In this document: positions 778-31,976 of the stretch, one piece after another
Position numbering within the stretch: position 1 is the stretch's first letter
Layout: the number at the start of each line of letters is the position of its first letter
Assembly (NCBI GenBank): GCA_030429145.1
Contig: JAUIDC010000001.1
Location: 180,001-212,000 of the forward strand
DNA length: 32,000 bases
Reading direction: 5' to 3'
Origin: Candidatus Saccharimonadota bacterium
Lineage (GTDB): Bacteria; Patescibacteriota; Gracilibacteria; Absconditabacterales; Absconditicoccaceae
Made by a program: the position numbers and the translations under genes
The notes under the pieces: model-generated
What the model was told of the DNA's origin: nothing
Seen by the model: only the letters and a program-made list of their open reading frames with translations
Database searches by the model: none

Positions 778-1641
778 TTATAGCGAAATCAATAAGTATG
801 ATTTCACACTCTTTGTTTCATAGGCATAACCTATACCAAAGAGAGCTTTGAGGTATTTAGCTTGTACAAGCTTAAGGATTCCTCCTTCTAGGCGTACTAC
901 ACACTTATTGGGCAATGAATAGCCGAAATCTGAGTATAGTAATAAGTGCTGCTTGCGATGAATCATGAACGTGTTGAGGTTGGCAATGGCATCATTGCTT
1001 TTCCAGAGCACAGTTGTGCTAAAACGCTCATTCTTATAGTCGAAGCCTATGCCAGTAGTCTGGGTCTTTACCTGGTAAAAACCGCTAATGCGAAAGTTCT
1101 TTACCGTACCTGACAACTGATACTCAGGCATGTTTTGGCGAAGAGATAATCCTCCACCGATCATGCTATTTTCAGTTGGTAGATATCTGACCATAACTCC
1201 TGGTGCAGCACCTGGGAAGCGACCCTTCGTTGAAGGTTCAAACTGTCCAAAATGTGAAGCGGGATGTGGCCTATGCTGCAAAGCTGTCAGCGTAGGACTA
1301 AAACCTGCATTTACAATCCACTTACGATGAGGAACATACTGAACATAAGCAGTAGCTAGTCCATACGATACTTGTGATATCGTTTCATACTCTGCAAATG
1401 TCCACGAGTAATACGTTAGTTTCTTGCTCATCTTCCAATGAATAGCTGCACCGACACGGGTATACATAAAGTTGTTGAATTGCTTCGTCTCAGGCTGATA
1501 CAAAGCGCCCGACAATACGCCAGCATATACTTTATCTATCATCACCGCGCTGTCACCTACAGGTATATTGGTAAGCTGTGCTTGAACTGTTAATGAACTC
1601 ATGGTGATAACGCACACCAACGCGATAATTAGTCTTTTCAT
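778..1641 (-). CDS. secreted beta-rich protein with signal peptide (possible beta-barrel/porin-like fold)
   Basis: 287-aa ORF running ATG 1639-1641 to TAA 778-780. N-terminus MKRLIIALVCVITMSSLTVQAQ looks like a signal peptide. The rest is rich in short alternating hydrophobic/polar strands with many Y/F/G/T residues. No family motif recognised. Confidence 0.55.
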   Translation of the reverse strand: MKRLIIALVCVITMSSLTVQAQLTNIPVGDSAVMIDKVYAGVLSGALYQPETKQFNNFMYTRVGAAIHWKMSKKLTYYSWTFAEYETISQVSYGLATAYVQYVPHRKWIVNAGFSPTLTALQHRPHPASHFGQFEPSTKGRFPGAAPGVMVRYLPTENSMIGGGLSLRQNMPEYQLSGTVKNFRISGFYQVKTQTTGIGFDYKNERFSTTVLWKSNDAIANLNTFMIHRKQHLLLYSDFGYSLPNKCVVRLEGGILKLVQAKYLKALFGIGYAYETKSVKSYLLISL

Positions 1642-1719
1642 ATTTTTCTTTTATTTTGGTTTTTGTGTTCATATTATAATACATATCTCTTATCTGTCAA
1701 TTATGTTGATTAACTTTCT

Positions 1720-1741
1720 GTTGTTTGAAACCACCAACAAC
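1720..1741. repeat. inverted repeat GTTGTT-N10-AACAAC in the divergent promoter region upstream of the TrmB-like gene
   Basis: GTTGTT at 1720-1725 and AACAAC at 1736-1741, read directly. An operator role is only a guess. Confidence 0.2.
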
Positions 1742-1802
1742 CCCCTAAATTTGCGTAATAGCAAAAGTACGAATATACTAGGATATATCTTATTTCTTAC
1801 GA

Positions 1803-1808
1803 TATTTT
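1803..1808 (+). promoter_or_regulatory. -10-like hexamer TATTTT 6 nt upstream of the TrmB ATG (short or absent leader)
   Basis: The sequence gaTATTTTacgcacATG is read directly. No Shine-Dalgarno-like purine run lies in between. Confidence 0.3.
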
Positions 1809-1814
1809 ACGCAC

Positions 1815-2558
1815 ATGGAATCATTACTTTTGACTCTCCAACAGTACGGTCTTTCTGAGAAGGAAGCGAAGGTCTATCTCACTGCCCTGCAACTCGGTTC
1901 AGCGCCCGGCAGCACTATTGCAAGAAATGCAAAAGAGAATAGAGCTACGGTCTATACCATCCTCAAAGAGCTCCAGAAAAAAGGGATCGTCAACGAGATC
2001 AAGAAAGACAACGTCACATTCTTCTCAGTCATCGCTCCTGACCTCCTCCTCAGAGAATTAGAAGACAAGTACAATAGCTTCAAGGAGAAGATTCCTGAGT
2101 TTCTCGCACTTGCAGAGACATTTGGCAATAAGCCAAAAGTACAGTTTTTTGAAGGCATTGAGGGTGTGAAGAAAATGTATGAGGACCTTCTTAGTTCACA
2201 AACAGAGATCTGTTCATTTCTCGGCATTGAGCACAGCAACAAAGAACTACTACAATACCTCAACAGAGAGTTTCTTATACGTCGCATCAAAAATGACATC
2301 TCTGCGAGAGTGATACTTTCTGACACAGAAAAAAATCAGAAATATGCTGGTATTGATGAAAAAGCGAAGAAACACTCTATCATTATTGAAAAGCCTGACT
2401 TCACTATTGACGGTGAAATAAACATCTACGGTCCAAACAAGATCAGCATCGCTCTGATGCACGATACAGAGATGTCGGGCATCATCATCTCAAGTGAGAA
2501 GCTATACTCTACCCTCAAAAATATATTCGATTTAGTTTGGTCGCAGAATAGTAAATAA
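1815..2558 (+). CDS. TrmB-family helix-turn-helix transcriptional regulator
   Basis: 247-aa intact ORF. The N-terminus LQQYGLSEKEAKVYLTALQLGSAPGSTIARNAKENRATVYTILKELQKKGIV is the TrmB-type winged HTH pattern (GLSxxEAKVYxxLLxxG...). Stop is TAA at 2556-2558. Confidence 0.7.
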   Translation: MESLLLTLQQYGLSEKEAKVYLTALQLGSAPGSTIARNAKENRATVYTILKELQKKGIVNEIKKDNVTFFSVIAPDLLLRELEDKYNSFKEKIPEFLALAETFGNKPKVQFFEGIEGVKKMYEDLLSSQTEICSFLGIEHSNKELLQYLNREFLIRRIKNDISARVILSDTEKNQKYAGIDEKAKKHSIIIEKPDFTIDGEINIYGPNKISIALMHDTEMSGIIISSEKLYSTLKNIFDLVWSQNSK

Positions 2559-4945
2559 TGAGCATGAAAGCTCCAGCACGCGGAGCCTGAGTTAATGAAA
2601 ATCTAGAATCAACAAGAGTTGATAAGATTTGATATTATCTTGATCAACTCTTTGGGCCTAATCCAGACCCAAATGGTATGTTTCTGTATGACTGGGGAGA
2701 CCCGCTTGGCAAAGACAATGGTGCACACCTCTTTTCAGAAGTCACACAGACCAAAGGCTACCAGCGCCTATCGCAATGAGAAAAAAACCTCTACAAGACT
2801 CACGCACATATACTAAAAGATATCCTCGATGAAAACACGAGAAACATCATCGACATGGGATGTGGAGATGGCGAGAAAAGTGCACAGGTACTGGATGCGG
2901 CGCTTGGTGAACAACTTGCATGAAAAACCTATATCCCTGCTGACATCAGTCCTTATTTTGTCGACCATGCAGGCGACAATGTCAAAGACCATTTCTCAAA
3001 ACAAAATACAAATATCAAAACAGTAGGAATGAATATCGACTTTCTTACATCCGATGCATTCAAAGATATCAAACATAAAATCTACCTCCTCCTTGGATGA
3101 AGTATTGGTAATTTTTCTGATGAAGAGATAGTACAAATATTACAAAATATGGCTGACAATAGCTACAAGGAGACGAGCAAGGCAGCCTTCAGTTACTTCA
3201 CTGCTCCCGATAAAGAGAGTGAGACATATCAAGATGATATCTATAAAATACTTGCTGCATACGGAGACCCTGACACTACAAACCCTTATTTTGATCAAGA
3301 AACACATCAAAAAACATCAGAGCGAATCCTTAGATGATTTGAATCTCTCGGCATCGAGAGAAACTCGATAGAGTTTTGTGTAAAGTATGATAAAGAGAAA
3401 AAAAGAATAGTAAGTGGCGTAAAAGTAAAAAAAAGGATCGTGATTAAACGTAATGGGAAAAATTATTTAAAGGAACCCGGAGAACACATATGGGCGATAC
3501 AATCAAGAAGATTTTCGAAGGAAGATATAAGTGCATTAATTAGCCAAGCATGAGGCGAAGTCATAGACAACTCCCCTCTTCAAGAGGGAATGGCAGCTAT
3601 CAGTTTTGAGGTAGGAAAAACACCTGAAGCTATAGAATCCAATAGAAAATTGAGAAAAAACAAGTTGGTCACGACCATCACTACTCTTGCTCTTCTTGCA
3701 GCATTAGGATGAGGTATGAAAATAGGCGAGAAAAGAGCTCAGGAAAAAGAAAGGAAAGAACGAATAGAGCGAGCTTCACCCTATGTCAATTTGACTCAAT
3801 CGTACAGATGACTTAGCAACGATCTGACTAATAAAGGTGATCAGAATGCTGAACAATTACGGGAACATTACGAGATAACATATGCTGAGCGCTTTAAGAC
3901 AGCCTACAATATAGATGATGCTAAAGCAAAAGAGATGAAACGCAGCTTTCTTTCGTGGTATGTGAAACAAACGGCCAACACGAGATATAGCCTTGATACC
4001 CGAGGTGGTTATGGAGAAAGCTATATCCACCTGATGCATGACTTTATCAATGAAAGAGGCGAAGAGTTTTGATTGAGTCAAAAAGATTATTTTGGAAATA
4101 TAGATGTTTATATGAGTCTTACTCGTAATACATTGCATTCTGAGTTGTCTGGAGAACTTCCTCAGGGCACAAAGATTACGAACGAGAAAATAATAAGTCA
4201 TAACCATCACTTCAACCTTTTTGATGAGGAAGGAAGAACAATTGGCAAAGTAGCTCAAGCAGAGATCAATGGGCAAAAAATGTTGGTCGCTGCATATGTG
4301 GAGGGACAAGATCAATACAGTAGCTACTCTGTAGATGCCGGCAAAGAGTTTCTCAAGATCTACTATATGAACTACCCATGACTGTACGATTTTTCTAAAC
4401 AGCTAGCTGCGAAGTATCAATTTAAAGAAGATAACTCAATGACTCATGAGGCAAACTGAAGGGAATACAATAGAGCTTCACAAGAGTTTATTCAAAAACA
4501 CATCGCATGATTACTCATGCAAGGATACGAGTTTGATTTCTATACACTAGGTTTACACTCTAATGAATATCAAATAAACTATTTTGCTAGTACATTCCTG
4601 CCTTACTCCAAAGAGGACTATGAGAATATAGATATGGGTAATCGAGATTGGTTTGAGTCATACAATGTACAGTGACTACTCGATGAGTGTATTGAATATG
4701 TCAAAAAGAATATTATGAGCAAAGAAGACACTCTCTCTCTTAAAAGAGAAAATCGCCTCAGAAGCATCATCTTCACAGCGATCTACAATAACATGACTCT
4801 AGGAGTAAGAACATTGACTGCCGAAAAAGCAGTTGCAGATCTTGAAGAAGAAATTAAAGCGTGACTAGTGAACCAAATTGTGTCTGAGAAAACGATAGCT
4901 GCTGGAAGAGGCAACGGACAGACCATCAAAATATATGAAGAGTAA
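2558..4945 (+). CDS. 795-aa fusion: EgtD-like SAM-dependent N-methyltransferase (Methyltransf_33 type) + TM-like segment + ~400-aa uncharacterised C-terminal domain
   Basis: ATG 2558 overlaps the TrmB stop (TAATG). One frame stays open to TAA 4943-4945 if TGA=Gly, with in-frame TGA starting at 2588, 2630, 2777, 2921, 3098, 3335, 3551, 3710, 3809, 4070 and 4379, among others. It absorbs track ORFs 3149..3337 and 4073..4381. EgtD-type motifs: LYDWGD..GAHLFSEVTQTKGY, IIDMGCGDGEKS, YIPADISPYF, LLLG-G-SIGNFSDEEIVQIL, WAIQSRRFSKEDISALISQAG. Hydrophobic LVTTITTLALLAALGGGM lies at about 3662-3720. Confidence 0.7.
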
Positions 4946-5006
4946 CACGAAGATCAGCGATAGCACTACTCTACTAACTGTTGGTGGAGATAAACAACAG
5001 AAAAAA

Positions 5007-5036
5007 AGTTCATATAATTTACATATGAGCTTTTTC
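5007..5036 (+). terminator. rho-independent terminator after the methyltransferase-fusion gene
   Basis: Stem AGTTCATAT (5007-5015) / ATATGAGCT (5023-5031) with one G-U pair, a 7-nt loop and TTTTT at 5031-5035. An A-run precedes it. Confidence 0.6.
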
Positions 5037-5078
5037 AATTATAATTATTAATAATTTATACCTCACTTAACTATTTTA

Positions 5079-5792
5079 ATGAATCATATAAACAAACTTA
5101 ATGACGAGAGGATCAATAATATCCAGGAAGCTGGCAAATGAAACCTCCTCAAAAAAATCTCTGCCAGAATCGCCAACGAATTTCATGAAGAGAATATTGA
5201 AAATCTTCGCACGGCATTTGATGTGCTATTCTGAAAAGGAGAGATGACTGCAGAAGTCAAAGAGGCACTCAAAAAGTTTAATCTTGCTGGACTTCAGCTT
5301 TCTGACGATGAAAAAACCATAGACAGTGAAGCAAAAAGCAAATGGCTCATACAATACTGGCAAGATTTAGCTCATGTTTCAATGGGTGTTTATACCAATA
5401 TGAGACCAGTTGACATCAATATAGATATACCTCAAGAGTCAGGTAAATATAAATTTATTTTTATCAATCCTGGAATTATGCGAGACAATGAGTTTGCCCT
5501 TGTATCATGAACAGAAGATGCCCATATAGATATCTTCAGACGTTATCACAGTGAACATACCCAAGAAGATAACGAGACAACTGCAAAAATGAAAAACAAC
5601 AGCGGCCAAGCGATGGTTCCCGGTGGTTGACGAATAGAGGTCGACGCTAAAAACAAGCACCTTCGTTTTTATGGAAGCTCAGGAAATTATGGATATATAG
5701 CTGATAAGGTTATTGAATGGGCGACGCAGAAATTAAGGAATCAGTGATGGGAGACGAAGATTGAGATGGATTATGCAGGGAGAAATCATTAA
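5079..5792 (+). CDS. hypothetical protein (237 aa), no recognisable family
   Basis: ATG 5079 to TAA 5790-5792, open only if four TGA codons are read as Gly. It absorbs track ORF 5244..5510. The C-terminal segment is AMVPGG-G-RIEVDAKNKHLRFYGSSGNYGYIADKVIEWA. The start codon is uncertain. Confidence 0.5.
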
Positions 5793-8700
5793 TTACTTCA
5801 CCACCTTACCCATCTCCAAATACACAACCTCATCTGCAAACTTCAACAGGGTCTTATCATGCTCAATCATCAAGATTGTATCTCACTTATCGAGGAACTG
5901 CTTCAATACGAGGAGCAGTTTTTCGATATCCGAAGGATGAAGACCGACCGTTGGTTCGTCGAGGAAGTAGACGGTATGACCTCTGTATTGTTTAAGGAGA
6001 TGTTTGACGAGTTTGATACGCTGTGATTCACCTCCTGAAAGCGTATGTGCTGGCTGCCCCATTCTGAGGTAACCGAGCCCGATATCGATCATCAGTTTGA
6101 GCTCGTCGGCAATAAATCCGATGTCTTTGAAGACCTCGTAGGCCTCATAGACGTACATTTCGAGAATATCAGCGATCGTGTGCCCATGCCGATGAATATT
6201 CAGTATTTCCGTTTTGTAACGCTTACCGTGACAAAGTTCACAAGGAACATAGGTATCTGGGAGGAATTGAAGCTCTATTTTCTTGTGACCGTAGCCATCA
6301 CACGCTGGACATGCACCCTTTGACGAGTTGAACGAAAAGTGTCCCGCTTGGAAACCCATAAACTTCGCCTGATCGGTTCCAGCATAAATCTTACGAATAT
6401 TATCAAATGTGCCAATAAACGTACCTGGACAACTACGCGGCGTCTTACCAATACTCGTCTGGTCTACATAAATAACATTATCAACTTTATCGTGACCCGT
6501 GATAGTCTCTACTCCTATCGTATGATAAAATTCTTGTAGTGCGAGATTTTCAAGATTTGAGTACTCTTCACGTTTCATGACTGGCGATGCAACAATCTCG
6601 CTCCACGACATTCCTTTTTTCAAAAGCTGCAGTCTAATCCATCACTGTACGAATTTTGTCTTCTCTTCAAAGAACTTATAAAGCGTCTCAAACATAAGCG
6701 TCGTTTTACCTGCTCCCGATGGACCGGTAATGATACTAAATGCACCAAGACGAAGATTGACATCTATCCCCTGCAGATTGTTTTGCGTTGCTTTCTTTAC
6801 CTTAATCCACTTATCTTCTGGCTTATGATCAAACGTCACATCTATCTTTCTCTTACCAGTAATATAGTCTGCCGTCAATGTTTCAGACTTTTCAAACTTG
6901 TCATATGGCCCAGAGAACAGTAGATGTCCACCAAAATCACCTGATCATGGTCATATCTCGACCACCCAGTCCGATGCTTTGATAAAAGCTTCATTGTGCT
7001 CTACCACGACGATAGTATTTCCCATATCTTTGAGCGTCTTGATCGCTTTTATCGTACGTTCAATCTCACGATCATCCAGACCAATAGTCGGCTCATCGAG
7101 TACATAGATGATACCAGTCAACTTATTACCAAGCTGTTTCGCCAATCTCAAACGCTGGATCTCACCTCCGGAAAGCGTATCGATCTGTCTGTGCAGATTG
7201 AGATGCCCAAGTCCAAGACTACCAATTGTGTTGAGCCTATCTAAGAGTGGTGTCATGATACGATTGACCAACATTTCTGGCTTGTCGGTCGTCTTCTGGT
7301 AGTATTCCAATTTTGCTACGAGATCTGCGATAGTCATCCTCTGCAGATCATAGATGGTGAACATCTCGTCAACCTTATCAGTGAAAATATTGTCGGGCTG
7401 TTTTCCTTTTGCACCCATATATAAAAACACATACATAGACTCTTTACGGAGCTTACTTCCATGACATTCTGGGCATAGTTGCATATGAAACATCGCCTGA
7501 AAGTCTACACTTAGTACACCCTTGTTGTACTGAGAGGTCAATACGTCCTGTATACCATGATATTTCATACTTACATACTTACCTCCCATACCAAGCCTGA
7601 GGAGTTCTCCATCACCATCTATCACTACTTGTTGAAACCACTGTGGTAGTTTGTTCCATGGGAGATCCTCATCCATCGAATATTTCTGCGCTAACTTCTT
7701 CAAGATAGTCTGCCCAAGCACACTATCTTTCCATGGAATAATCGCTTTTGAGAAAACTGCTCCCGTATCGATGATACGATCCATATCTACCTGCAATATT
7801 TCACCTAATCCATGACAGTGCTGACACGCACCCTCTGCTCTATTTGGCGAAAAATGCTGCGTTGTAAACTCAGGATACGAGATATCATAATCCGGGTCGT
7901 AGTTCTTATCAGTAAACCACTTGATACTGTTCGACACAGTAAATACATCTTTATCTAACCCTTTCGACAGCTCATTTTCTCCATCCTGTTTCTCTTCCAA
8001 TGCCTCATAAACACCGAATTTCTTCGTCAATGACAAAATCTTAATAATATCTTCTTTCAAACGCCCCATCTTGCTCTCCTCGATCGTCACACGGTCAAAG
8101 ATCCCATAGACTTTTATCGGGAAAAACTTCTCCGGAATATGTGGAGATTCGAGATAGAAATACTCGATAACACTTGCGTCAGCGACAGATTCTACTGCTT
8201 GATGTTTGTGCTCTTCTCTTGCATGAGCAATAATATTGACATTTGAACCTTGCGTCTCTAGCTCCTTTTTTCCTTTCTTTTTTGTCGTTTCTTCTTCGAT
8301 ATCATCATCTTCGCTCGCTTCTTCCGTATCCTTTCCTCCCATAAGGATAAGATATCTTGTGAATCACTCTCCATTTTCTACTTTCGTGCGATTTTTCTTC
8401 ACAAATTTGAGAAAACTCATCTCATCGTCAAATCTTCCTGCTTCCTGCACAAGGTAGATTTTCTTATTGAGATATTTTTCTTTAATCTCTCCTACTATCT
8501 GATCAATACTCTGTGGTCTGATCATCTTCCCCGAACCATACGAGTAGATATCACCAAGCTTTGCATACATCAGACGTAGATAATCATCGATCTCTGTCAA
8601 CGTTCCCACTGTCGAACGAACATTTCCGACACGTTTATTCTGTTCAATAGCAATCGCCGGAGAAAGCCCTTCTGTGTAGTCTATATCTGGCCTCTCACCA

Positions 8701-9050
8701 AGATTAAAAAACTGTCTGAGATACGATGAAAGTGACTCAATATAGCGATACTGCCCCTCTTTATAGACTGTATCAAATGCAAATGATGACTTTCCGGAAC
8801 CAGAAACTCATACCACTGAAACTATGTTGTTCTTCGGGATAGTAATATCAACATCACGAAGATTGTGCGTCTTGATACCACGGAAAACAATTTTTTCTCC
8901 CTCTGGCTGATAGACCTCAGAGTGGATATGCTCTCCGGCAGCGATAATTTCCTCATGGGTTACCGCCTTCATTACCTTCTTTTTCGCTGTCGTTTTCTTC
9001 TTTGCTACTGATTTTTTCGCTGGAGTCTTCTTTTTTGCGCTACTCGGCAT
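5793..9050 (-). CDS. uvrA: excinuclease ABC subunit A (UvrA) with a K/A-rich N-terminal tail
   Basis: Track ORFs 8808..9056, 8364..8609, 6951..8342, 6642..6878 and 5883..6623 share one frame and are separated only by TGA (8808, 8364, 6951, 6945, 6642, 5883). The true stop is TAA at 5793-5795. Motifs: Walker A VV-G-VSGSGKSS, EI-G-P-G-SG (= IGPGAG), zinc modules CQHCHGLG, CPECHGSK and CPACDGYG..CELCHGKRY, and signatures LSGGEIQR and LSGGESQR. I place the start at ATG 9048-9050; an alternative TTG is at 9054-9056. Confidence 0.92.
8970..9050 (-). other. low-complexity segment coding the UvrA Lys/Ala-rich N-terminal tail
   Basis: MPSSAKKKTPAKKSVAKKKTTAKKKVMKAV precedes the conserved UvrA N-terminus (..FRGIKTHNLRDVDITIP). 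Confidence 0.7.
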
Positions 9051-15886: not shown

Positions 15887-18256
15887 CTATTCCTTAATAT
15901 TCTGCGTATTTTTACAGTCAGGATATTTATTACATGCAAGGAAGTAACCGCGTCTTGATTTCTTCACGTGCATAGTACCTTTTTCACACTTATCACACTT
16001 CTTTCCGCCAAACTTCTCCTCAAGTTCCTCCATTTTTTCATCAGGGATAGACGAGATCCACTTTACCTTTGGATATTCTGAGGATGTCAGGAATGGACCG
16101 AATCTACCCATCTTCACGACGATAGTTCCACCCTCTGGACATGGCTTCCCTTCATATTTCTCACGTAGTGGAGCCAAAGCGTCTTTCTCTTCCTGTGTCT
16201 TCTCCGTGTAGTCACACTCTGGATAGTTACTACATCCTATAAATTTGCCAAAACGAGTAAACTTATAGATAAGATCACCGTCTGTACATTTTGGACATTT
16301 TTTCCCAACAGGCACCACTTCTTTCTCACTCTTTTTCGCAGCATTAATCGTCTTTTCAAAGCCTGTATAAAACTCTTCCATCATCTTTTTCCAACCCTTC
16401 TTTCCTTCTGCGATCGTATCGAGTTCATCTTCCATCTTCGCTGTGAACTCATAATTCATCAAATTTTCAAAATTCTTCTCCAAAAAATCTACTACCAAAA
16501 AGGCTATCTCGGTTGGATGAAGCTTTTTATCCTCTTTCTTTACGACGTACCCTCTCTCCTGCACAGTAGAGATAGTCGGCGCATATGTTGAAGGACGTCA
16601 TACTCCGTATCATTCTAGAGCTTTTACAAGCGACGCCTCGGTGTATCTTGCTGGTGGACGCGTAAATGATTGGTGTGCTCTGACGTAGTCAGCAGGTAGC
16701 GTTATTCATTTATCAAGATTTGGTAACGTCTGATCACCTCCTTCTTCCTCATTTTCCTCATCCTGTCCATAGAGAGCAAGAAAACCAGGGAAGACTATAC
16801 GCTTTCCTTTAGCAACCCACTCCTGCTCTGTTCCTTCAGGAGTAAATGTATAAGTGGTATTGAGTACCTTAGCACTTGCCATCTGTGATGCAACCGTACG
16901 AGCCCAAATCAGCTCATAGAGCTTCAGTTCCTGACCACTCAGCCCCGACGTTTGTGGCGTACGATCCACATATGTTGGTCTGATAGCTTCATGCGCCTCT
17001 TGGGCATTTTTACTCTTTGTTGAAAATTTTCTCACGGTCAAATAGTCTTTGCCGTATGCATGTTCAATATATTTTGCCGCAGCATTGATTGCCATGCCAG
17101 AGAGATTGACACTATCCGTTCTCATATAGGTGATGAAACCTCTTTCGTAGAGCTTCTGTGCTGTCATCATCACCTGTTTCACTGACCACCCTAGTCTTGA
17201 TGCTCCTGCTTGTTGGAGCGTAGACGTTGTAAACGGTGCTGCAGGGTTTCTGGTAGAAGTTTTTTCCCCGATATCCATGAGACTAAACCTGCTGTCAGCC
17301 GAGTAAGTATGTACAAGCCACCCAGTCTTTTCATTCGTTTCGACCTGAGGAGTCAGATTGCTCGTCAAAGTTTTCACCATCGCCTCGGCATCAGCGAGGG
17401 TATGAAGCTTAACAGCCTTGCCCGCATCTTTATGTAGCTCACAAGATAAAGAAGTTTTTTCATATTTCAGATCTGTTTTGAGTGTCCATGACTCTTCTGG
17501 TTTGAAGTTCTGTATCTCTCTTTCTTTCTCTACTATCATTTTTACTGCTACCGACTGTACACGTCAAGCAGAAAGTCCACGACGAATCTTTGTCCGTAAG
17601 ACTGGTGATACATTAAATCACACGAGACGGTCAAGTACACGTCTTGCCTGTTGCGCATCTACGAGATTCATATCAATATGTCTCGGATTTTCTACTGCAG
17701 CTTGTATAGCATCTTTCGTAATCTCATGAAAAACTATACGTGGCGTCTTGTCTACGGGCAAACCAAGGACATGAGAAACATGCCAAGCAATAGCCTCTCC
17801 TTCGCGGTCCTCGTCCGTTGCAAGCCATACTTGTTTTGCCACTTTTGCATCTCTTTTCAACTCTGCAATGACTTTTTTCTTGTCTGCTGAAACCTCATAG
17901 GTCGGTGTAAAGTTTTCTTTTACATCAATACCTAAAGTCTTTTGCGGCAAATCAGCCACATGTCCAAATGAGGCCTTTACTTCTCGGTCTTTACCAAGAA
18001 ATCACTGGATAGTTTTCCCTTTTGCAGGAGACTCCACAATGACAAGATTTCTTCCTGTCACGTCTGCTCCTGAAAGCGTATATGATCTTGTTGCTCTTGC
18101 TGTTGTCTTCTTCGCGGCAACTTTCTTCGTCGTCTTTTTTGTAGCTGTCTTCTTCGCTGATGATTTTTTTGCTACTTTTTTCGCTGTAGTCTTTTTTGCC
18201 TTTTTCGCTGGTGCGGCGCTATCGGCAGAACGCTTAGTCGTCTTTTTCGCTACCAT
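15887..18256 (-). CDS. topA: DNA topoisomerase I with a Lys/Ala/Thr-rich N-terminal tail
   Basis: Track ORFs 18002..18256, 17618..17959, 16706..17539 and 15887..16564 share one frame and are joined only by TGA (18002, 17618, 17564, 16706 and two more in 16565-16705). Motifs: TOPRIM [50 protein letters not shown], and C-terminal zinc ribbons CPKC..CSNYPEC and CDKC..CNKYPDC. Stop is TAG at 15887-15889. Confidence 0.93.
18086..18256 (-). other. low-complexity segment coding the TopA Lys/Ala/Thr-rich N-terminal tail
   Basis: MVAKKTTKRSADSAAPAKKAKKTTAKKVAKKSSAKKTATKKTTKKVAAKKTTARATRS precedes the TOPRIM core. I found no alternative ATG between the tail and the core. Confidence 0.8.
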
Positions 18257-25293: not shown

Positions 25294-28071
25294 CTACTCA
25301 ATAATCTCTATCGGCGAGGTACTAATACGCGTCTTTCCATCTTCACCGAGGAGCACTGCTCTGACTTTGTCTCACTGCACAAGGTCTGCTGCAGCATCTA
25401 CGTACGGACACGGGCAGACATTACACTGCCCTGCGATGACACCTGCTGGAGTGTCAGGGATATCAATAAACTCAGGACAGCCATCTTCATCTTCCACTCC
25501 GTTCATATTTTCTGGCGTGTCTGGGCAGGCATCTTTGCTATCGGTGATACCATCACCATCTCTGTCATCATCAGGGATGATAAGACCTTCACAGATGTCG
25601 CCGATGAAATTACCATTGATATCTGCTTGGTCTGGATTGACAGTGAGTGAGCAGTTATCAAGTGTATCTCCCCTGCTGATACGATCAATCATCGTAAGGA
25701 TGATGGAGTTGTTAAGATCTGATGGGCGATATCTACACTGTGGTGGTTGACGAAGGATGAGGCCAAGCATATTTTTCTTGCCATCACCGTCAATATCCTC
25801 ATCACACATGTCTGGTATGGTGTCACCATCCATATCACATGCACCTGCTACTGGAGGCTTTTGCAAACAAAGTGGTACACCGAGCACTGTCACATGTGCT
25901 GCAGGATAAAATCGCTGCCCATCAGTATCTTCTACGCGAGCACGTATACGATAAATACCTGGTTTGATGTAGGTATACTCGTACCCATTGGTGATGCTAT
26001 TGTCAAATGTCAGTGACTGCCCATCTCACATATCGACTATGATGCGAGAGATATCAGGCCAGTTCAATCCATTGAGCACAAAGCGATAGTTCACTGGCTC
26101 GCCAGTATTCATCACAAGCTTTGCTGGAATAAGATCTACTCCTTGGTCGTTTCATGCTTGTAGTGGGAGTACGTTGATATTGATAATATTTGTTAGTTCG
26201 CTGCCATCAAGTAAGTAGATAGTTTGTTTGACGATCTTTGGTCCTGCTTCTGCGTAGGTATGAGTATATGTTGAAGAGTTGTTTGTTTGAATGATCCCGT
26301 CACCAAAATCCCATTTGATAGAAACGATATCTCTTCTCTGGATACCAGCTGTCACTGTTGTAAACGTAATAGGTTGTGAGATGGTAGGGTTGAGGTTGGA
26401 TGCTCTGAGATATGCAGAGATGTCACCATTGAGCGAGACAGATCCCTGTGCATATGCGACTATTTGTTGATCGTCGTATGCTTGTGCAACGATTGGATAG
26501 GTGCCTGCTGACTCATAAGCGAAAGAAACGACCTGTCCATTTGCACCCTCTTTTTGCTGAGTATTACTCTCCCACGCGATGCGTCAGACAGGACGAGTTG
26601 TGACAGGCGTGACGTTGATAGTTGCAGGCACATTTGCCGTCAGTGGATTTGGTAAAATTTGGAAACCGAGCGCTGCCTGCAAGTCCGGCACTACGACAAT
26701 CGTCGTTGTTGCTACATAGGTCTTTTTACCACCAAGCGCTGTAAGCACAACCTCATAGGTTCCTGGTCCTGGGAATGTGTGAGACACGGCTCTACCCTGC
26801 CCATAGGTACCATCACCAAAATCCCACGTAAAATCTTTCAACGCTCAGGTATATTGTGCTGCCAGTGCATAGGTACCATTTCTTATTTTTCTGCTGACAA
26901 TAGTGAGGCCAAAATATTCGCTCTCTGAACATGCGTCCCCTATCTCATCGTTATTGAAATCAGATTGGTCGGTATTGATAGTGAAGAGACAATTATCTAT
27001 TGGATCAGGATATTCTGCAATTACTTTCGTGTTAATATTTCCATTGTCATCAACGACTCCAATAGGGTTTTTCACTGTATCACCATCTATATCATCATCA
27101 CAGACGTCACCAATACCATCATTGTCTAGATCTCTCTGTGTGGGATTATAAGTCAGATAACAACTATCCGCATAGTCTTTGATACCATCCTTATCTTTAT
27201 CATCATCGTACACACAAGCCACCTTCTCTTTTACTCTTGCAAGAGAGGTCAACACCGTCGTTCCATCTACATAATCTCCAACATTGATACTATCTGCCTC
27301 ATCGGCAGAGATAATATCTTCAAGCACTAATATATTGAGTTCTGCAACCGGCCAAAATTGCTCTTGTGCGGTATCAAACTCACGCATACCACAGGCTTGG
27401 AGGTTAAACGTACAGTATTTGAGATAGACATTGAACTCATCGGCTGATTGCAGTGGCTGAGGCTGCGTGTATTGTGCAGCATTGCCTACAACAACGCCCT
27501 GCTCCTTGAGTGAAAAATATCTTCTGATGAGGGTGCTGTTGGCTGAACTTTGCATCCACTGCTCTATCTGTTGCCAGTCTGCAACATAGTGTGATGCTAT
27601 ACGCTCAGAAAGTATATTGATAATCACCTGTATAAAATCAGCAACCGTCGTATTGTTTGTTCCACAAAACTTTCCTCAACAAAGAGGACTCGTCTGTCTT
27701 GGGTATCCAGACATATATCACTGCTCAGCAACATAGGCAACACAGTAGTAGTTATTGTTCTCTTGTGTAGCAGGAGGTATGTATGAAACATCATCGAAAT
27801 TGACCGAGAGGTCGCTACGGAATGTTGTTCGCCAGGCAGAAGTAAGTCTATCTACTAGATCGCTACTCGGTCTACGACAGTCGTGACAGTCAACAAAGTT
27901 GAGCAGTCTTGCCACATCAAATCTTGAGACCACTGGTGCTGATTCTATGCTCGCAACATCTACGTTTACACTACGAAGCGAACGAGTAAAACTCTCGTAG
28001 TCGGCAAATGCTGCTCCTCCTACAAGTATCATACAGAGCGCTGACCACACTACGAGTAGTTTTTTTATCAT
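25294..28071 (-). CDS. 925-aa secreted surface protein: signal peptide, SLH-like region, thrombospondin type-3 (TSP3) Ca-binding repeats, about four PKD domains, second TSP3 block
   Basis: Track ORFs 27718..28071, 26845..27627, 26584..26841, 26152..26355 and 25372..25893 share one frame. I translated the gaps by hand and they hold only TGA (e.g. 27718, 27676, 26845, 26584, 26152, 26026, 25372). The true stop is TAG at 25294-25296. Signal peptide MIKKLLVVWSALCMILVGGAAFA. TSP3 strings DKDGIKDYADSC..NPTQRDLDNDGIGDVCDDDIDGD (about 26929-27210) and DMDGDTIPDMCDEDIDGDG..NPDQADINGNFIGDIC..DRDGDGITDSKDACPDTPE. PKD signatures WDFGDG (twice) and VDM-G-DG. Confidence 0.82.
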
Positions 28072-28103: not shown

Positions 28104-28949
28104 TTATCTGAAACGAAAGAACGGACTTGCTGCACAGTTTTGCTGACATTCAAAGCCATTGATGACATACTGACCATTCTCTCTAATGATGTACGAATAC
28201 CATGTTTCACCATAAGTCAATCCGTCATTTTGCAAGATGTATGATGTGTTATACTGTACTACCATAGCATCTTCATTTCTTTGTACGATTGGATGATCTA
28301 TAACTGCATTTACATCACTTAGCTGTATGTCTCCGATGATGTTTTGCTTTCGACTCTCGAGTCTTGATGGACTGAAATACTGTACTAAGCCTGGATCAGT
28401 TGTGAATGTCGAATCAAACAGCGTTGGCATCTGATCAAACTTTCACTCATTGAAATACCCGTAAAATGTCTCAACCATCTTCTGTGCGTCGACAGGAAAT
28501 GCAGCATTGTCATTTGCTGGAAGCGGTAGCTGAGCATTTTGCTCTGTGTCAGTTGCACTTGCTCCGTTATTGTCCTGCTCTTCTCCACTCATAACATCTG
28601 CGCTATTGTTCTGCTCTGCCGGTACTGTGGTAGGCGGGTTATCTTTGTTGATCTGAATGTAGATACCCACGAGAACTAAGAGTGTTCCTAGCCCGAGAAC
28701 TATTAGTGACAAAAAATTATTTTTTCTCATGGCTGGATATTGTGATGTGAGTTCATCTTCTCGTAGGTTTTCATATGCCAAATCTTTGTCGATTGTTGCC
28801 GTACGATTGGCCGCTGTCTTTTTCGCTGTCGTTTTTTTCGCTGCAGTTTTCTTGGTTGTACTCTTTTTTGCTACAGCCGTTTTCTTCGTTTTCGCAGGTG
28901 CAGAACGGCGAGTAGAAGTTTTTTTTGCTGTTGTTTTTTTTGCAGGCAT
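28104..28949 (-). CDS. single-pass membrane protein with a histone-H1-like Lys/Ala/Thr-rich N-terminal tail and a C-terminal globular domain
   Basis: Track ORFs 28443..28955 and 28104..28430 share one frame and are joined by TGA 28443-28445. ATG is at 28947-28949 and TAA at 28104-28106. Order: tail, TM helix FLSLIVLGLGTLLVLVGIYIQI, a low-complexity linker, then about 150 aa (AQKMVETFYGYFNE-G-KFDQM...YIIRENGQYVINGFECQQN). Confidence 0.65.
28794..28949 (-). other. low-complexity segment coding the Lys/Ala/Thr-rich N-terminal tail of the membrane protein
   Basis: MPAKKTTAKKTSTRRSAPAKTKKTAVAKKSTTKKTAAKKTTAKKTAANRT. Confidence 0.7.
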
Positions 28950-29120: not shown

Positions 29121-29558
29121 ATGAACTATAGTACGTGACCACATCAACTACTCAGACCAGATGCATATAGCGTTCGTCGCTCCTCTGCTTGACTCGGTCT
29201 TTACGCAGAGCAACCTATCAAAAAAGGACAAAAAATTATTGAATATATTGGAGAAAGGATTTCAACTGCAGAAGCAGATCGTCGTGGTGGAAAGTACCTC
29301 TTCACTGTAAACTCACGCATCACTATCGATGGCACACCAAGATATAACACCGCTCGCTATATCAATCATAGCTGTAAACCCAATGCTGAACCTAGAGAAA
29401 ACAGTGGAAGAATTTACGCATATGCAATAAAAAATATTGCCGCATGAGAAGAGATTACCTACAATTATGGGAAAGAGTACCGAGAGCACTATATCAAACC
29501 TTACGGATGCAGATGTGCTGCATGCAAAAAAAATGTATGAACTAAAAAGAAAAAATAA
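29121..29558 (+). CDS. SET-domain protein-lysine methyltransferase (145 aa, minimal SET)
   Basis: ATG 29121 to TAA 29556-29558. It is missing from the ORF track because of four TGA codons. Motifs: SSA-G-LGLYAEQPIKKGQKIIEYIGERIS, RYINHSCKPNAE (NHSCxPN), IAA-G-EEITYNYG (ELTxDY), and a post-SET-like Cys cluster GCRCAACK. Confidence 0.85.
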
Positions 29559-30251: not shown

Positions 30252-31106
30252 CTACCCCAATAGACGAGATAATACGACAAAAAACAGCACCATCCCCGAA
30301 AGTGTATTTACTCGAGGAAAGATTTTATATATAGAGAAAAGTGTTCATTTTTTATATTGCCACAATGCTACTATCATCAGCGCTATATAGAGAACGCCTA
30401 GCAGTCCGAGAATCCAATGATAGAAAAAAGCGATGCTACCTGCCAAAAGATAAAGCAAGAGGCACAAGAATATAGTCCCCAAACCTCAAAGCAACGTTGC
30501 GACGGTATCTACCCCTCACTCCTTATCAGCTTGTATGTCAGGCACAGCTGAAAATGCATGCATCGCCATAGCCCAGGCCAGTGCGGCAAGCACAAACATC
30601 CAGCCAATGTTTTCTGGTCCAGCGATCAGCAAAAATCAAAACAGCGCTGTTGTTACATAATGTCATGCACTGAAAAACATATCTAGCAACGGTAGACCTT
30701 TCGCTCTTATCGGCTTTGCCGAATACTGTCCTGAGAAAAAGAGGAAAAGCAAGAACGCTACGATAGGAGCGATCTCCCATGGGATAAATAAAAGAAAAGG
30801 AAGTGTTGAAAAAGCTATTCGCCTCCACAGTTTTAGATGCTCTTTCGGTTCAACAAGAGCCTCATAGGCCTGTTTCTTTGGATTGAGCTTATCTGTTTCA
30901 TAGTCGTAGATGTCGTTGATCCCGTATATCCAAATGTTTGCAGGGATGAGAAAATATAAAAAGAATACAGCGATGAGGAACCACATACTCTTATCTCAAG
31001 GCACACCAAATAGTGCCATCCCAGCTATAAGACCAATCATGTATGGCCCCAGTTCATATATTCGAAATCTTGGTCTAGAAATACGCAACACTCTCTGCAA
31101 ATGCAT
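30252..31106 (-). CDS. UbiA-family prenyltransferase (284 aa), lycopene-elongase (CrtEb/Lye)-like N-terminus
   Basis: One frame runs from ATG 31104-31106 to TAG 30252-30254 with TGA at 30996, 30663, 30636, 30516, 30486 and 30345. It absorbs track ORF 30663..30986. Asp-rich motifs NDIYDYETDKLNPKK and DIQADKE-G-GVDT. The N-terminus LRISRPRFRIYELGP resembles, from memory, the SRPRFW signature of carotenoid-elongating UbiA enzymes. About 8 TM helices. Confidence 0.72.
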
Positions 31107-31133: not shown

Positions 31134-31976
31134 TTATCGGATATGTTGTAATAAAATACGACCTTTATCAACTTTCGTTGTTCTCGCCGAATGAGAAAAA
31201 ACATCATAGTTGTTTTTTTCTATTTTTCTGAGTATTCACTGATAGAGCTTTGATGCGAGAAAGATAGGTTTCTGAGCAAACTCAGGCAAAAACTGTAATC
31301 ACTCCTCTGCCTCAGCATAAAGCTGATCTGCATGTTCAATTTGCACACGCATAAAATCTTGCCGTGACGCATCAGGATTTTCTCTTCATTCTACATACGC
31401 ACGCACATCATCGTGCGATAAGCCATGTTGACGAAGCTCTTCTTGTGGCATATAAATGCGCTGAAAGTCTCTTCGATCCTCCGCTACATCACGCAAAAAG
31501 TTAGTAAGTTGCATGGCCTCTCAAAGCGCTCTCGCATATGGCAACGCGTGCTCTTTATCAGCGTCCACCAGATAACACATCATCTCTCCGACCACCATGG
31601 CAGAACCATACATATATTGTTGTAACTCCTCATATGTCTCATAAAGACTCTTCTCTGTATCCATTAACATCGCATCCCAAAAACTCTCGCTAGAGAGAAA
31701 TGGGATCTTTTTACGATGAAAAAGCTCTACGGCACTGCCCCAACGCTCATGTGCTATATCTTTTTCCTCATATGCTTTCTGCCACTCTTTCCACATCTCT
31801 TGGAGTATCCTCTTTGCATCTTGTCCCGATCTCTCTTTATCGTCTACGACCAAATCAGGGATGCGAACAAACGCATACAGTGTCATCACATCCTTCTTTA
31901 CATGACGAGGAAAGAACAATGTCGCATAGTAGTAACTTGTTCCATACTTTCTCATATAGTATGACACTGAACGCAT
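31134..31976 (-). CDS. phytoene/squalene synthase family enzyme (CrtB/CrtM-like, 280 aa)
   Basis: Track ORF 31521..31976 continues through TGA at 31521, 31386, 31299 and 31236 to TAA 31134-31136. Motifs: TSYYYATLFFP, LYAFVRIPDLVVDD (first Asp-rich), YMYGSAMVVGEMM, NFLRDVAEDRRDFQRIYMP (second Asp-rich), NYDVFSHSARTTK. Confidence 0.8.

What the first reader, a model, noticed from the sequence alone, without database searches (positions are those of the whole stretch)
1815..4945. TrmB-type regulator translationally coupled to a membrane-tethered EgtD-like methyltransferase fused to a 400-aa unknown domain
The regulator's TAA and the next ATG overlap (TAATG at 2556-2560). The 795-aa product starts with a domain matching the EgtD/Methyltransf_33 pattern. 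In characterised members this domain trimethylates the alpha-amino group of histidine or other amino acids to form betaines such as hercynine. No ergothioneine or ovothiol partner genes (egtB/C/E, ovoA) are nearby. Unusually, the domain is followed by a TM-like segment (about 3662-3720) and a large domain with no motif I recognise (3720-4945). The unit is insulated by its own terminator (5007-5036). A betaine-type methyltransferase is unexpected in a metabolically reduced lineage, and I have not seen the fusion architecture described.
Basis: partly seen in the sequence, partly recalled or inferred. Interest (0 to 1): 0.65.

Follow-up and report, generated by a model that had tools for sequence, protein, structure and literature searches.

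The report
Regulator-coupled membrane methyltransferase with hypervariable tail
A small-genome bacterium that reads TGA as glycine carries a conserved two-gene unit: a DNA-binding regulator overlapping a probably membrane-anchored enzyme related to the histidine-betaine synthase EgtD, whose fast-evolving, swappable tail matches no known protein family.

Summary
Under genetic code 25 (TGA = Gly), a 247-aa TrmB-type winged-helix gene (1815-2558) overlaps by one base a 795-aa ORF (2558-4945). That ORF has three parts: a Methyltransf_33 domain with a confident EgtD fold, a moderately hydrophobic helix (residues 370-387), and a ~400-aa region with no detectable relatives outside its own clade.

New findings:
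1. EgtD's backbone-binding and catalytic residues are conserved, but the imidazole-recognising ones are replaced, so it is not a histidine methyltransferase.
2. Close relatives of this TrmB are always followed, within -16 to +5 nt, by a Methyltransf_33 gene (14 gene pairs, 11 loci, all TGA-sense).
3. The regulator is about as conserved as UvrA. The enzyme evolves 4-7 times faster. The TM-plus-tail module has been exchanged between lineages, with a sharp breakpoint near 3620.
4. The tail types share five colinear motifs, so they are hypervariable alleles of one new domain.
5. A TGTTG-N11-CAACA palindrome marks both ends of the unit (10 copies against 0.25 expected).

Best reading: an autoregulated operon for a membrane-anchored, non-histidine amino-acid N-alpha-methyltransferase with an exposed variable domain. 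Substrate, topology and purpose are inferred, not shown. It is a new variant of a known enzyme family.

The parts
1719..1739 (.). Upstream palindrome TGTTGTTTGAAACCACCAACA (TGTTG-N11-CAACA), a candidate operator. It lies 76 nt before the TrmB start codon and 19 nt from the -35 hexamer of the divergent promoter.
   Evidence: It is conserved upstream of TrmB in the window, L002, L003, L006 and L007, while the flanks diverge in L003. There are 10 exact copies in 315.8 kb against 0.25 expected, and all lie at module boundaries.
1815..2558 (+). Gene for a 247-aa regulator: a TrmB-type winged helix (residues 8-75, nt 1836-2039) plus an unassigned ~170-aa C-terminal domain.
   Evidence: PF01978 at E=3.7e-14. 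No family matches the C-terminal half. It is 82-88% identical to its orthologues in the full-length comparisons (L002, L003, L006), similar to UvrA.
2556..2560 (+). TAATG stop/start overlap between the regulator gene and the fusion gene.
   Evidence: Read directly from the sequence. Spacing of -16 to +5 nt holds in all 14 TrmB/Methyltransf_33 pairs in 11 loci.
2558..4945 (+). Gene for the 795-aa fusion protein (code 25, 15 TGA = Gly codons).
   Evidence: The same architecture is found in 9 other loci.
2681..3565 (+). EgtD-fold SAM-dependent methyltransferase domain (Methyltransf_33, residues 42-336).
   Evidence: PF10017 at E=2.8e-29. The AlphaFold2 model has pLDDT about 85-95 across the domain. 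The top 15 Foldseek hits are all EgtD, E about 1e-15, target TM-score 0.72-0.80. Y44, F59, Y68, G180, N185, Y235 and S316 align with EgtD Y39, F47, Y56, G161, N166, Y206 and S284, whereas T213 becomes N242, E282 becomes I314, and M252 falls in a gap.
3620..3660 (+). Recombination breakpoint between the window and its closest relative, L002.
   Evidence: Nucleotide identity is 68-88% from 1642 to 3619 and about 30-49% from 3620 onward. The methyltransferase domains are 78.8% identical while the C-terminal regions are of different types.
3665..3718 (+). Hydrophobic, Ala/Gly/Thr/Leu-rich helix (residues 370-387), a probable single transmembrane anchor preceded by a Lys/Arg cluster.
   Evidence: The Kyte-Doolittle mean is 1.46 and the Hessa sum is +3.5 kcal/mol. 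An uncharged run of 18-23 residues sits at the same position in 8 of 10 homologues and is 12 residues in L005/L006. Mean net charge is +4.4 before and +2.2 after. It lies in a predicted helix spanning 356-382.
3725..4942 (+). Hypervariable C-terminal domain (residues 390-795, 'type I'), lineage-specific.
   Evidence: No Pfam hit. An exhaustive HMM search found 6 hits, all self or fragments. The AlphaFold2 model has pLDDT 57 and no fold match. It shares colinear motifs with the other tail types.
4979..4999 (.). Downstream palindrome TGTTGGTGGAGATAAACAACA. Its reverse complement is 17/21 identical to the upstream copy.
   Evidence: Equivalent copies lie 3-34 nt after the last Methyltransf_33 gene in L008, L009 and L011.
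5003..5035 (+). Intrinsic-terminator-like hairpin with an A-run before it and a U-run after it.
   Evidence: Free energy -11.3 kcal/mol, z = -4.28, and 0 of 200 shuffles fold as well.

Best explanation
This is a clade-specific two-gene operon of small-genome bacteria that read TGA as glycine.

Shown: a winged-helix TrmB-type regulator gene is tightly joined to a gene for a three-part protein. The parts are an EgtD-fold SAM-dependent methyltransferase domain, a short hydrophobic helix, and a ~400-570-aa region that is hypervariable and has been exchanged between lineages.

Inferred:
(1) The enzyme domain methylates the alpha-amino group of a substrate that carries a free alpha-carboxylate, i.e. 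an amino acid other than histidine. The residues that hold the backbone and drive sequential methylation in EgtD are kept, and the imidazole-binding ones are replaced by Asn and Ile. The likely product is an N-methylated amino acid or betaine.
(2) The hydrophobic helix spans the membrane, with the enzyme in the cytoplasm, where SAM is available, and the variable region outside, where exposure to hosts, prey or phages would explain its rapid divergence and allele swapping.
(3) The regulator binds the TGTTG-N11-CAACA palindromes at both ends of the unit. It thereby controls its own operon and insulates it from the next gene.
(4) Close paralogues of this regulator pair only with Methyltransf_33 genes of three different architectures. 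Its unassigned C-terminal domain therefore most likely senses a substrate or product of that chemistry.
For: Architecture and family: (EgtD fold, E about 1e-15, target TM-score up to 0.80, clearly separated from generic methyltransferases at E of 1.5e-9 or worse).

Active-site logic: the alignment, with residue roles taken from PMC8593015 (Tyr56, Tyr206 and Ser284 bind the carboxylate, Asn166 binds the alpha-amine, Thr213 plus a water binds the imidazole, and Glu282 is named an important residue) and PMC9103826 (Asn166 and Gly161 are critical for sequential methylation). The SAM motif DMGCGDG is intact and D129 is invariant. The best structural match is the EgtD M252V/E282A variant bound to tryptophan.

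Membrane anchor: the hydrophobic segment is conserved in position, 13-18 residues after the domain end, even in homologues only about 23-27% identical. A Lys/Arg cluster precedes it in all 10 proteins.

Regulator-enzyme link: all 14 close TrmB genes with readable downstream sequence are followed by a Methyltransf_33 gene (one via a second TrmB). TrmB-likes of 39% identity or less are not.

Rate contrast and exchange: for window vs L001, dN is 0.08 (UvrA), 0.41 (methyltransferase) and 0.61 (tail). For L003 vs L006, dN is 0.05 (TrmB) and 0.36 (methyltransferase). Domain trees are discordant and the DNA breakpoint is sharp.

Palindromes: 10 exact copies against 0.25 expected, all at module boundaries.

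Terminator.
Against: No activity, topology or DNA-binding data exist.

The hydrophobic segment is marginal. Hessa sums are positive (+1.7 to +7.6 kcal/mol), and the uncharged run is only 12 residues in L005/L006. The region just after it is rich in Lys/Arg as well as Glu, which does not favour export.

The residue mapping rests on a multiple alignment at about 14-20% identity. Neither the window domain alone nor a six-sequence profile of the family found EgtD in the PDB by sequence.

No convincing sigma-70-type promoter was found for the regulator gene.

The downstream palindromes in distant loci share only the 5-bp arms, so they could be weak terminator stems or sites for another protein.

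The regulator's C-terminal half has no recognised ligand-binding domain.

Only 11 loci from one clade were available.
Confidence: 0.5

Rival explanations
1. Conflict-system reading. The unit is a variable-island gene, either an anti-phage or anti-competitor effector or a surface interaction factor. In this reading the hypervariable C-terminal region is a sensor or specificity module, the methyltransferase is the effector (for example depleting or modifying an amino acid pool or SAM), and the winged-helix protein is a conserved island regulator. The arrangement would be analogous to the BrxR/CapW regulators that sit directly upstream of diverse defence systems.
For: The regulator is highly conserved next to a gene that evolves 4-7 times faster and has been replaced or recombined. 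Gene content between TrmB and UvrA is variable: extra cassettes, unrelated downstream genes, and an IS1595 transposase in L003. A precedent for conserved wHTH regulators upstream of variable defence systems is described in PMC9122601.
Against: There is no meaningful PADLOC match, only generic wHTH and methyltransferase-motif hits. No relatives were found on viral contigs. The regulator pairs strictly with Methyltransf_33 genes rather than with diverse systems, which fits a metabolite-linked regulator better. No WYL or other known sensor domain is present. The unit sits at one syntenic position, not in a mobile island.
Confidence: 0.2
2. Soluble-protein reading. The hydrophobic helix is not a membrane anchor but a linker or oligomerisation helix, and both the enzyme and the C-terminal region are cytoplasmic. 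The C-terminal region would then be a regulatory or substrate-recruiting domain.
For: Hydrophobicity is marginal: Kyte-Doolittle means of 0.75-1.8, and all Hessa sums are positive. The uncharged run is only 12 residues in L005/L006. Both flanks are strongly charged. AlphaFold2 models the segment as part of one long helix continuing from the domain. There is no signal peptide, and a large C-terminal region would have to be exported.
Against: The segment's position and composition (Ala/Gly/Leu/Thr with GxxxG-like spacing) are conserved, while its sequence is not, across homologues down to about 23-27% identity. Eight of 10 have an uncharged run of 18-23 residues. A Lys/Arg cluster always precedes it. 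This pattern is typical of a signal-anchor. Extreme variability of the tail is easier to explain if it is exposed.
Confidence: 0.15
3. Lipid head-group reading. The enzyme is held at the membrane because its substrate is membrane-bound: an amino-acid head group with a free alpha-amine and alpha-carboxylate on a lipid or cell-surface precursor. This would resemble the N-trimethylation step of betaine-lipid (DGTS) synthesis by BtaB (from my own knowledge, not tested here).
For: The backbone-binding residues are conserved while the side-chain pocket has become more hydrophobic (E282 becomes Ile). Membrane tethering is conserved across the family.
Against: No lipid-synthesis partner such as a BtaA-type gene was seen next to the unit in any locus. 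EgtD-family enzymes are known only for free amino acids and dimethylallyl-tryptophan. The standalone and N-extended Methyltransf_33 paralogues in the same loci lack any hydrophobic segment.
Confidence: 0.07
4. Canonical EgtD reading. The enzyme makes hercynine from histidine for an ergothioneine-type or ovothiol-type pathway.
For: It matches the Pfam 'histidine-specific methyltransferase' family and has the EgtD fold.
Against: The imidazole-binding residues are not conserved (T213 becomes N, E282 becomes I, M252 is a gap). It scores 72 bits against the EgtD equivalog model, whose cutoff is 290.9. No EgtB, EgtC, EgtE, OvoA or EanB-type domain was found among the scanned ORFs of the 32-kb window or in the flanks of related loci.
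Confidence: 0.03

Closest known systems
EgtD (Mycolicibacterium smegmatis / M. tuberculosis), L-histidine N-alpha-trimethyltransferase of ergothioneine biosynthesis; PDB 4pim, 4pio, 4uy6, 7scf
   Same: Same fold (Foldseek E about 1e-15, target TM-score 0.72-0.80) and same Pfam family. The SAM motif is intact. The residues for the alpha-carboxylate (Y56, Y206, S284), the alpha-amine (N166, G161) and the C-alpha contact (Y39, F47) are all conserved.
   Different: Sequence identity is only about 14-15%. The side-chain (imidazole) residues are replaced. It scores far below the EgtD equivalog cutoff. It carries a hydrophobic helix and a ~400-aa tail that EgtD lacks. It has no EgtB, EgtC or EgtE partners, and it is paired with a winged-helix regulator.
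Engineered EgtD M252V/E282A (PDB 4pip) and other non-histidine members of the family such as EasF (TIGR03439)
   Same: They show that changes at positions 252 and 282 go with a non-histidine (tryptophan) ligand, and the window protein differs at exactly these positions. 4pip is the best structural match. The EasF-family model scores about the same as the EgtD model (73.4 vs 72 bits).
   Different: It is below the curated cutoffs of both models. The substrate here is unknown. Those enzymes are soluble and single-domain.
TrmB / TrmBL sugar-sensing regulators of Thermococcales and haloarchaea
   Same: The N-terminal winged-helix DNA-binding domain (PF01978, E=3.7e-14), and a palindromic candidate operator next to its own gene.
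   Different: No match to the TrmB sugar-binding C-terminal domain. It scores 37 bits against a cutoff of 650 for TrmBL1. It is paired with methyltransferase genes, not sugar transport or metabolism genes.
BrxR / CapW WYL-domain regulators upstream of phage-defence systems (PMC9122601)
   Same: A conserved winged-helix regulator lies immediately upstream of, and tightly joined to, a much more variable gene. This is a resemblance of layout only.
   Different: No WYL domain. No defence-family match. The partner is always a Methyltransf_33 gene rather than diverse systems.

Membership tests
Methyltransf_33 / EgtD family | Match to the family profile above the curated cutoff | tested here: met
   PF10017 scores 102.6 bits against a cutoff of 23, E=2.8e-29, profile positions 20-287 of 304.
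Methyltransf_33 / EgtD family | EgtD-type two-part fold (Rossmann methyltransferase core plus substrate-binding subdomain) | tested here: met
   The AlphaFold2 model has pLDDT about 85-95 over the domain. The top 15 Foldseek PDB hits are all EgtD, with target TM-scores of 0.72-0.80, while other methyltransferases reach 0.64 at most.
Methyltransf_33 / EgtD family | SAM-binding motif and residues that bind the alpha-amino and alpha-carboxylate groups (Y39, Y56, G161, N166, Y206, S284) | tested here: met
   All are conserved in the window protein and in all 7 close homologues. Residue roles come from PMC8593015 and PMC9103826. The alignment is at low identity.
EgtD proper (L-histidine N-alpha-methyltransferase, TIGR03438 equivalog) | Score above the equivalog cutoff | tested here: not met
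   72 bits against a cutoff of 290.9.
EgtD proper (L-histidine N-alpha-methyltransferase, TIGR03438 equivalog) | Imidazole-recognising residues (T213, E282, M252) | tested here: not met
   These positions are N242, I314 and a gap in the whole family.
EgtD proper (L-histidine N-alpha-methyltransferase, TIGR03438 equivalog) | Sulfur-transfer partner genes (egtB/C/E, eanB, ovoA) nearby | tested here: not met
   No such domain was found among the window ORFs scanned or in the flanks of related loci. The rest of the genome was not available.
EgtD proper (L-histidine N-alpha-methyltransferase, TIGR03438 equivalog) | SAM-dependent methylation of an amino acid in vitro | not testable with these tools
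   This needs an enzyme assay.
TrmB family regulators | TrmB-type winged-helix DNA-binding domain | tested here: met
   PF01978 at E=3.7e-14, residues 8-75, in all 7 members scanned.
TrmB family regulators | C-terminal sugar/effector-binding domain of archaeal TrmB, or an equivalog-level match | tested here: not met
   No Pfam hit beyond residue ~96. TrmBL1 scores 37 bits against 650, and TrmB scores 17.9 against 500. The PDB profile search found nothing relevant.
TrmB family regulators | Binding to a palindromic operator at its own promoter | not testable with these tools
   A candidate site exists (TGTTG-N11-CAACA), but binding was not tested.
Single-pass (bitopic) membrane proteins | One hydrophobic helix long enough to span the bilayer, with a positive-inside charge bias | tested here: inconclusive
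   The uncharged run is 18-23 residues in 8 of 10 homologues and 12 in two. Kyte-Doolittle means are 0.75-1.8. Hessa sums are +1.7 to +7.6 kcal/mol. Mean net charge is +4.4 before and +2.2 after. No dedicated topology predictor was available.
Known anti-phage defence systems (PADLOC) | Match of any component to a defence-system model | tested here: not met
   Only generic wHTH matches (Csa3/CasR, E of 2e-5 or worse) and a methyltransferase-motif match (mad2, E=5e-4) were found.

The most novel reading that the evidence does not exclude
The unit is a new kind of one-pass receptor enzyme pathway. A hypervariable outside domain that recognises a host, prey or environmental cue gates a cytoplasmic amino-acid betaine synthase. 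The methylated product of that enzyme is the effector read by the co-translated TrmB-like regulator. This would be small-molecule transmembrane signalling based on N-methylated amino acids, in TGA-recoded bacteria with very small genomes.
Probability: 0.12. Interest if true: 0.85.

Novelty: new variant of a known kind. Interest (0 to 1): 0.6.

Why it matters
EgtD-family enzymes are known as soluble, single-domain makers of amino-acid betaines such as the ergothioneine precursor. Here the same catalytic scaffold is retargeted away from histidine and probably tied to the membrane. It is fused to a domain that evolves and recombines like a surface or conflict protein, and it is locked to a dedicated regulator.

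The organisms have genomes of about 1 Mb and are thought to depend on other cells. That such a genome keeps one to three paralogous copies of this unit suggests it matters for their lifestyle.

The finding yields three concrete, testable items: a candidate new substrate specificity in the EgtD family, a new orphan domain family with five signature motifs, and a candidate operator for a regulator family that is uncharacterised in these bacteria.

It also shows that public protein databases translated these genes with TGA = Trp, which puts 15 wrong residues into this protein alone.

Tried and rejected
- Sequence searches of the PDB with the methyltransferase domain, alone and as a 6-sequence profile, did not find EgtD. 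The link was made through Pfam, bridging sequences P0012-P0014 and the fold search.
- The AlphaFold2 model of the C-terminal domain was poor (pLDDT 57, pTM 0.37). Its Foldseek search gave nothing (best E = 0.73), so no fold assignment is offered.
- The word-indexed database search with the methyltransferase profile returned only three distant canonical family members. The search with a 10-sequence profile of the C-terminal core returned nothing.
- The metagenome scan with the methyltransferase profile found nothing. The conserved regulator worked as a probe instead.
- Viral contig scans for both proteins were empty.
- PADLOC gave no real hit.
- dN/dS could not be used because synonymous sites are saturated in every available pair (pS 0.65-0.79). 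Only relative dN is reported.
- I considered that the different C-terminal types were unrelated domains. I rejected this because of five colinear shared motifs and profile-profile matches (II vs V, E=7e-5; III vs V, E=1.3e-4). Type I is linked to the others only weakly (E=0.0035-0.007).
- I considered that the Janus/Ocnus-like gene downstream belongs to the unit. I rejected this because it is absent from, or separated from, the unit in other loci, and the gene following the unit is unrelated between loci.
- The absence of TGA from the regulator gene (0 of 12 Gly codons) is not significant given a window-wide 14%.
- Literature searches for Gracilibacteria plus ergothioneine, and for the Pfam name or accession, found nothing relevant.
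The database (Trp) versions were used instead.


Full report
**Genetic code and gene models.** Under table 11 the window yields 6,364 aa of ORFs of at least 100 aa, and under table 25 it yields 13,093 aa. The region 2558-4945 is broken up under table 11 but is one 795-codon ORF with 15 in-frame TGA codons under table 25. TGA codes for Gly, not Trp. The window's TGA codons 74, 122 and 181 align with true Gly codons in homologues. Conversely, a homologue's TGA codons fall on the window's GxGxG glycines. The public protein database holds this protein translated with TGA = Trp, which explains its 98% identity to my translation. The source contig is 936,577 bp. The only named relative is a 1.1-Mb chromosome labelled 'Candidatus Peribacteria', and it also needs TGA read as sense.

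**The observation.** TAA (2556-2558) and ATG (2558-2560) overlap by one base. The upstream ORF (247 aa) matches the TrmB winged helix (PF01978, E=3.7e-14, residues 8-75). The rest of that protein matches nothing, and the TrmB/TrmBL1 equivalog models are far below cutoff. The 795-aa protein matches Methyltransf_33 at E=2.8e-29 over residues 42-336. Residues 390-795 have no Pfam match. The claimed terminator folds at -11.3 kcal/mol (z = -4.28) and is followed by a U-run. None of the window ORFs scanned carries a domain of the ergothioneine or ovothiol pathways. The neighbours include UvrA, topoisomerase I, RelA/SpoT, an ABC exporter and others.

**The enzyme domain.** By sequence it is a very divergent family member. 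Neither the domain alone nor a six-sequence profile finds EgtD in the PDB. The EgtD and EasF curated models score 72-73 bits against cutoffs of 291 and 206. An AlphaFold2 model of residues 1-478 is confident across the domain (pLDDT about 85-95). Its 15 best PDB matches are all EgtD (E about 1e-15, target TM-score 0.72-0.80), well separated from generic class I methyltransferases.

I recovered the EgtD sequence in M. smegmatis numbering through a bridging homologue and aligned it with the family. Y39, F47, Y56, G161, N166, Y206 and S284 correspond to Y44, F59, Y68, G180, N185, Y235 and S316, and these are invariant in all close homologues. According to PMC8593015, Tyr56, Tyr206 and Ser284 hold the substrate carboxylate, Asn166 holds the alpha-amine, Tyr39 contacts C-alpha, and Thr213 (through a water) contacts the imidazole; Glu282 is named among the important residues. 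PMC9103826 states that Asn166 and Gly161 are critical for sequential methylation. In the window family, T213 is Asn, E282 is Ile, and M252 falls in a gap. The best structural match is the engineered M252V/E282A EgtD bound to tryptophan.

My inference is that this is an active N-alpha-methyltransferase for a substrate with a free alpha-carboxylate, and that the substrate is not histidine.

**The hydrophobic segment.** Residues 370-387 are the hydrophobicity maximum but only moderately so (Kyte-Doolittle 1.46; Hessa sum +3.5 kcal/mol). Across ten fusion proteins, some only about 23-27% identical, a Gly/Ala/Leu/Thr-rich uncharged run sits 13-18 residues after the end of the enzyme domain. It is 18-23 residues long in eight proteins and 12 in two, and a Lys/Arg cluster always precedes it. 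Mean net charge is +4.4 before and +2.2 after. Its position and character are conserved while its sequence is not, which is what a membrane anchor looks like. The numbers are marginal, though, and I could not run a topology predictor.

**The unit is conserved and specific.** In eleven loci from relatives, all needing TGA as sense, the regulator gene is followed at -16 to +5 nt by a Methyltransf_33 gene. Some loci carry a second cassette: a regulator paralogue (48-50% identical) followed by a standalone 394-399-aa Methyltransf_33 protein. Others add a 614-616-aa version with an N-terminal extension. TrmB-like genes of 39% identity or less, found with the same probe, have no such neighbour. The regulator therefore tracks the enzyme family and not the tail.

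**Rates and exchange.** The regulator is 82-97% identical between loci, and UvrA is 83-92% identical. The enzyme domain is 48-84% identical. The tails fall into at least five types that BLAST cannot align with each other. Synonymous sites are saturated, so only relative dN is usable. For window vs L001, dN is 0.08 for UvrA, 0.41 for the enzyme domain and 0.61 for the tail. For L003 vs L006, dN is 0.05 for the regulator and 0.36 for the enzyme domain.

The domain trees disagree with each other. The window's enzyme domain is closest to L002's (78.8%), but its tail type matches L001's (39.5% over 392 aa). L006's regulator is 93-97% identical to those of L003 and L004, while its enzyme and tail belong with L005. 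Against L002, nucleotide identity is 68-88% up to about position 3619 and about 30-49% from 3620 onward, just before the hydrophobic segment. The TM-plus-tail module, and in one case apparently the whole gene, has therefore been exchanged.

**The tail.** An exhaustive profile search of 1.84 billion representative proteins found only the protein itself and five fragments. No tail type has a Pfam match. A profile of the shared core found nothing. The structure model is poor and has no fold match.

The types are nevertheless related. Five colinear motifs recur: RY[NDE], NT[LI], GKxY[IL]VA, SYS[IL]xxG[KR] and [EQ]GY[EKD]F[DS]. The hairpin motif occurs in 8 of 10 tails against 0.014 expected from shuffles, and in seven of them a copy sits 183-200 residues after the anchor. 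That pattern was derived from these sequences, so the statistic is post hoc. Profile-profile comparisons give colinear matches (II vs V, E=7e-5 over 166 columns; III vs V, E=1.3e-4 over 268 columns), but type I is linked only weakly.

**Boundary palindromes.** Written as TGTTG-N11-CAACA, it has a second exact copy at 4979-4999, between the fusion gene's stop codon and the terminator. The reverse complement of that copy is 17/21 identical to the upstream copy. Every one lies at a boundary of the unit, including sites 3-18 nt after the last Methyltransf_33 gene in three distant loci, where the spacers are unrelated. The downstream copies occur only where a co-directional gene follows, and those following genes are unrelated between loci. 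I read these sites as candidate operators for the regulator. This is an inference only.

**Interpretation.** The layout, the fold and the residue pattern are shown. The activity on a non-histidine amino acid, the N-in/C-out topology, the binding of the regulator to the palindromes, and any sensing of a methyltransferase-related metabolite are inferred. The main rival is a conflict or variable-island reading, which the hypervariability and exchange favour, but which the strict regulator-enzyme pairing, the fixed syntenic position and the lack of defence or viral matches disfavour. A soluble-protein reading cannot be excluded. Canonical hercynine synthesis is very unlikely.

**Novelty.** In the library searched I found no description of a membrane-tethered or tail-fused member of this enzyme family, nor of this regulator pairing. 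The enzyme belongs to a known family. The architecture, the tail family and the operator are new. I therefore rate the finding as a new variant of a known kind, with moderate-to-high interest that depends on experiments.

Noticed in passing
window 4979-4999 and 1719-1739; also L007 544-564, L008 11449-11469, L009 6428-6448, L011 11756-11776: The TGTTG-N11-CAACA palindrome occurs only at boundaries of the regulator/methyltransferase unit: 10 exact copies in 316 kb against 0.25 expected. In the window the two copies form an inverted pair 3.26 kb apart. L007 has copies on both sides of the divergent upstream gene.
   Followed up: partly
window 5079-5792 (+): The gene just downstream matches the Janus/Ocnus family (PF05005, E=8.8e-9), which includes phosphohistidine phosphatases. 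It has orthologues (52-53% identity) in L002 and L003, but there they are separated from the unit by other genes, and it is absent from L001 and L006. A promoter-like site (TTTACA-16-TATAAT, 5018-5045) overlaps the terminator.
   Followed up: partly
window 778-1641 (-), promoter-like site 1700-1673: The divergent upstream gene encodes a 287-aa protein with an N-terminal signal-like sequence and no Pfam match. It evolves fast (38-51% identity to syntenic orthologues) and is preceded by a perfect TTGACA-16-TATAAT match.
   Followed up: partly
window 5793-9050 (-), 15887-18256 (-), 28104-28949 (-): UvrA, topoisomerase I and a 281-aa membrane protein all begin with long Lys/Ala/Thr-rich 'AKKTTAKK' tails resembling histone H1/HC2-like DNA-binding tails. 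The 281-aa protein has a weak PF07382 HC2 hit (E=1.5e-5, below cutoff).
   Followed up: no
window 29121-29558 (+): A 145-aa SET-domain protein (PF00856, E=8e-25), i.e. a lysine methyltransferase-type domain that is unusual in bacteria.
   Followed up: no
window 25294-28071 (-): A 925-aa secreted-looking protein with PKD domains and thrombospondin type 3 (Asp-rich, calcium-binding) repeats, a likely surface or adhesion protein.
   Followed up: no
window 30252-31106 (-) and 31134-31976 (-): An adjacent UbiA-family prenyltransferase and squalene/phytoene synthase (PF00494, E=1.4e-62). This is isoprenoid chemistry in a genome expected to be metabolically reduced.
   Followed up: no
P0001-P0006 (database proteins); L006 (OZ246420.1): The public protein collection translated these genes with TGA = Trp, which puts 15 wrong Trp residues into the window protein. 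The record labelled 'Candidatus Peribacteria' needs TGA read as sense in this locus (1,871 aa of ORFs under table 11 against 6,105 aa under table 25).
   Followed up: partly
L002 8388-10327, L003 8318-10243, L004 2988-4150; L008 5197-6735 and 9583-11433; L011 9894-11738: Relatives carry extra paralogous cassettes. These include a second regulator plus a standalone 394-399-aa Methyltransf_33 protein that lacks several EgtD backbone-binding residues, two regulator genes in tandem (L008), and 614-616-aa proteins with a ~270-aa unknown N-terminal extension before the methyltransferase domain.
   Followed up: partly
L003 13964-14800: An IS1595-family transposase lies about 5.7 kb downstream of the fusion gene in L003, within the variable stretch that follows the cassettes.
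   Followed up: no
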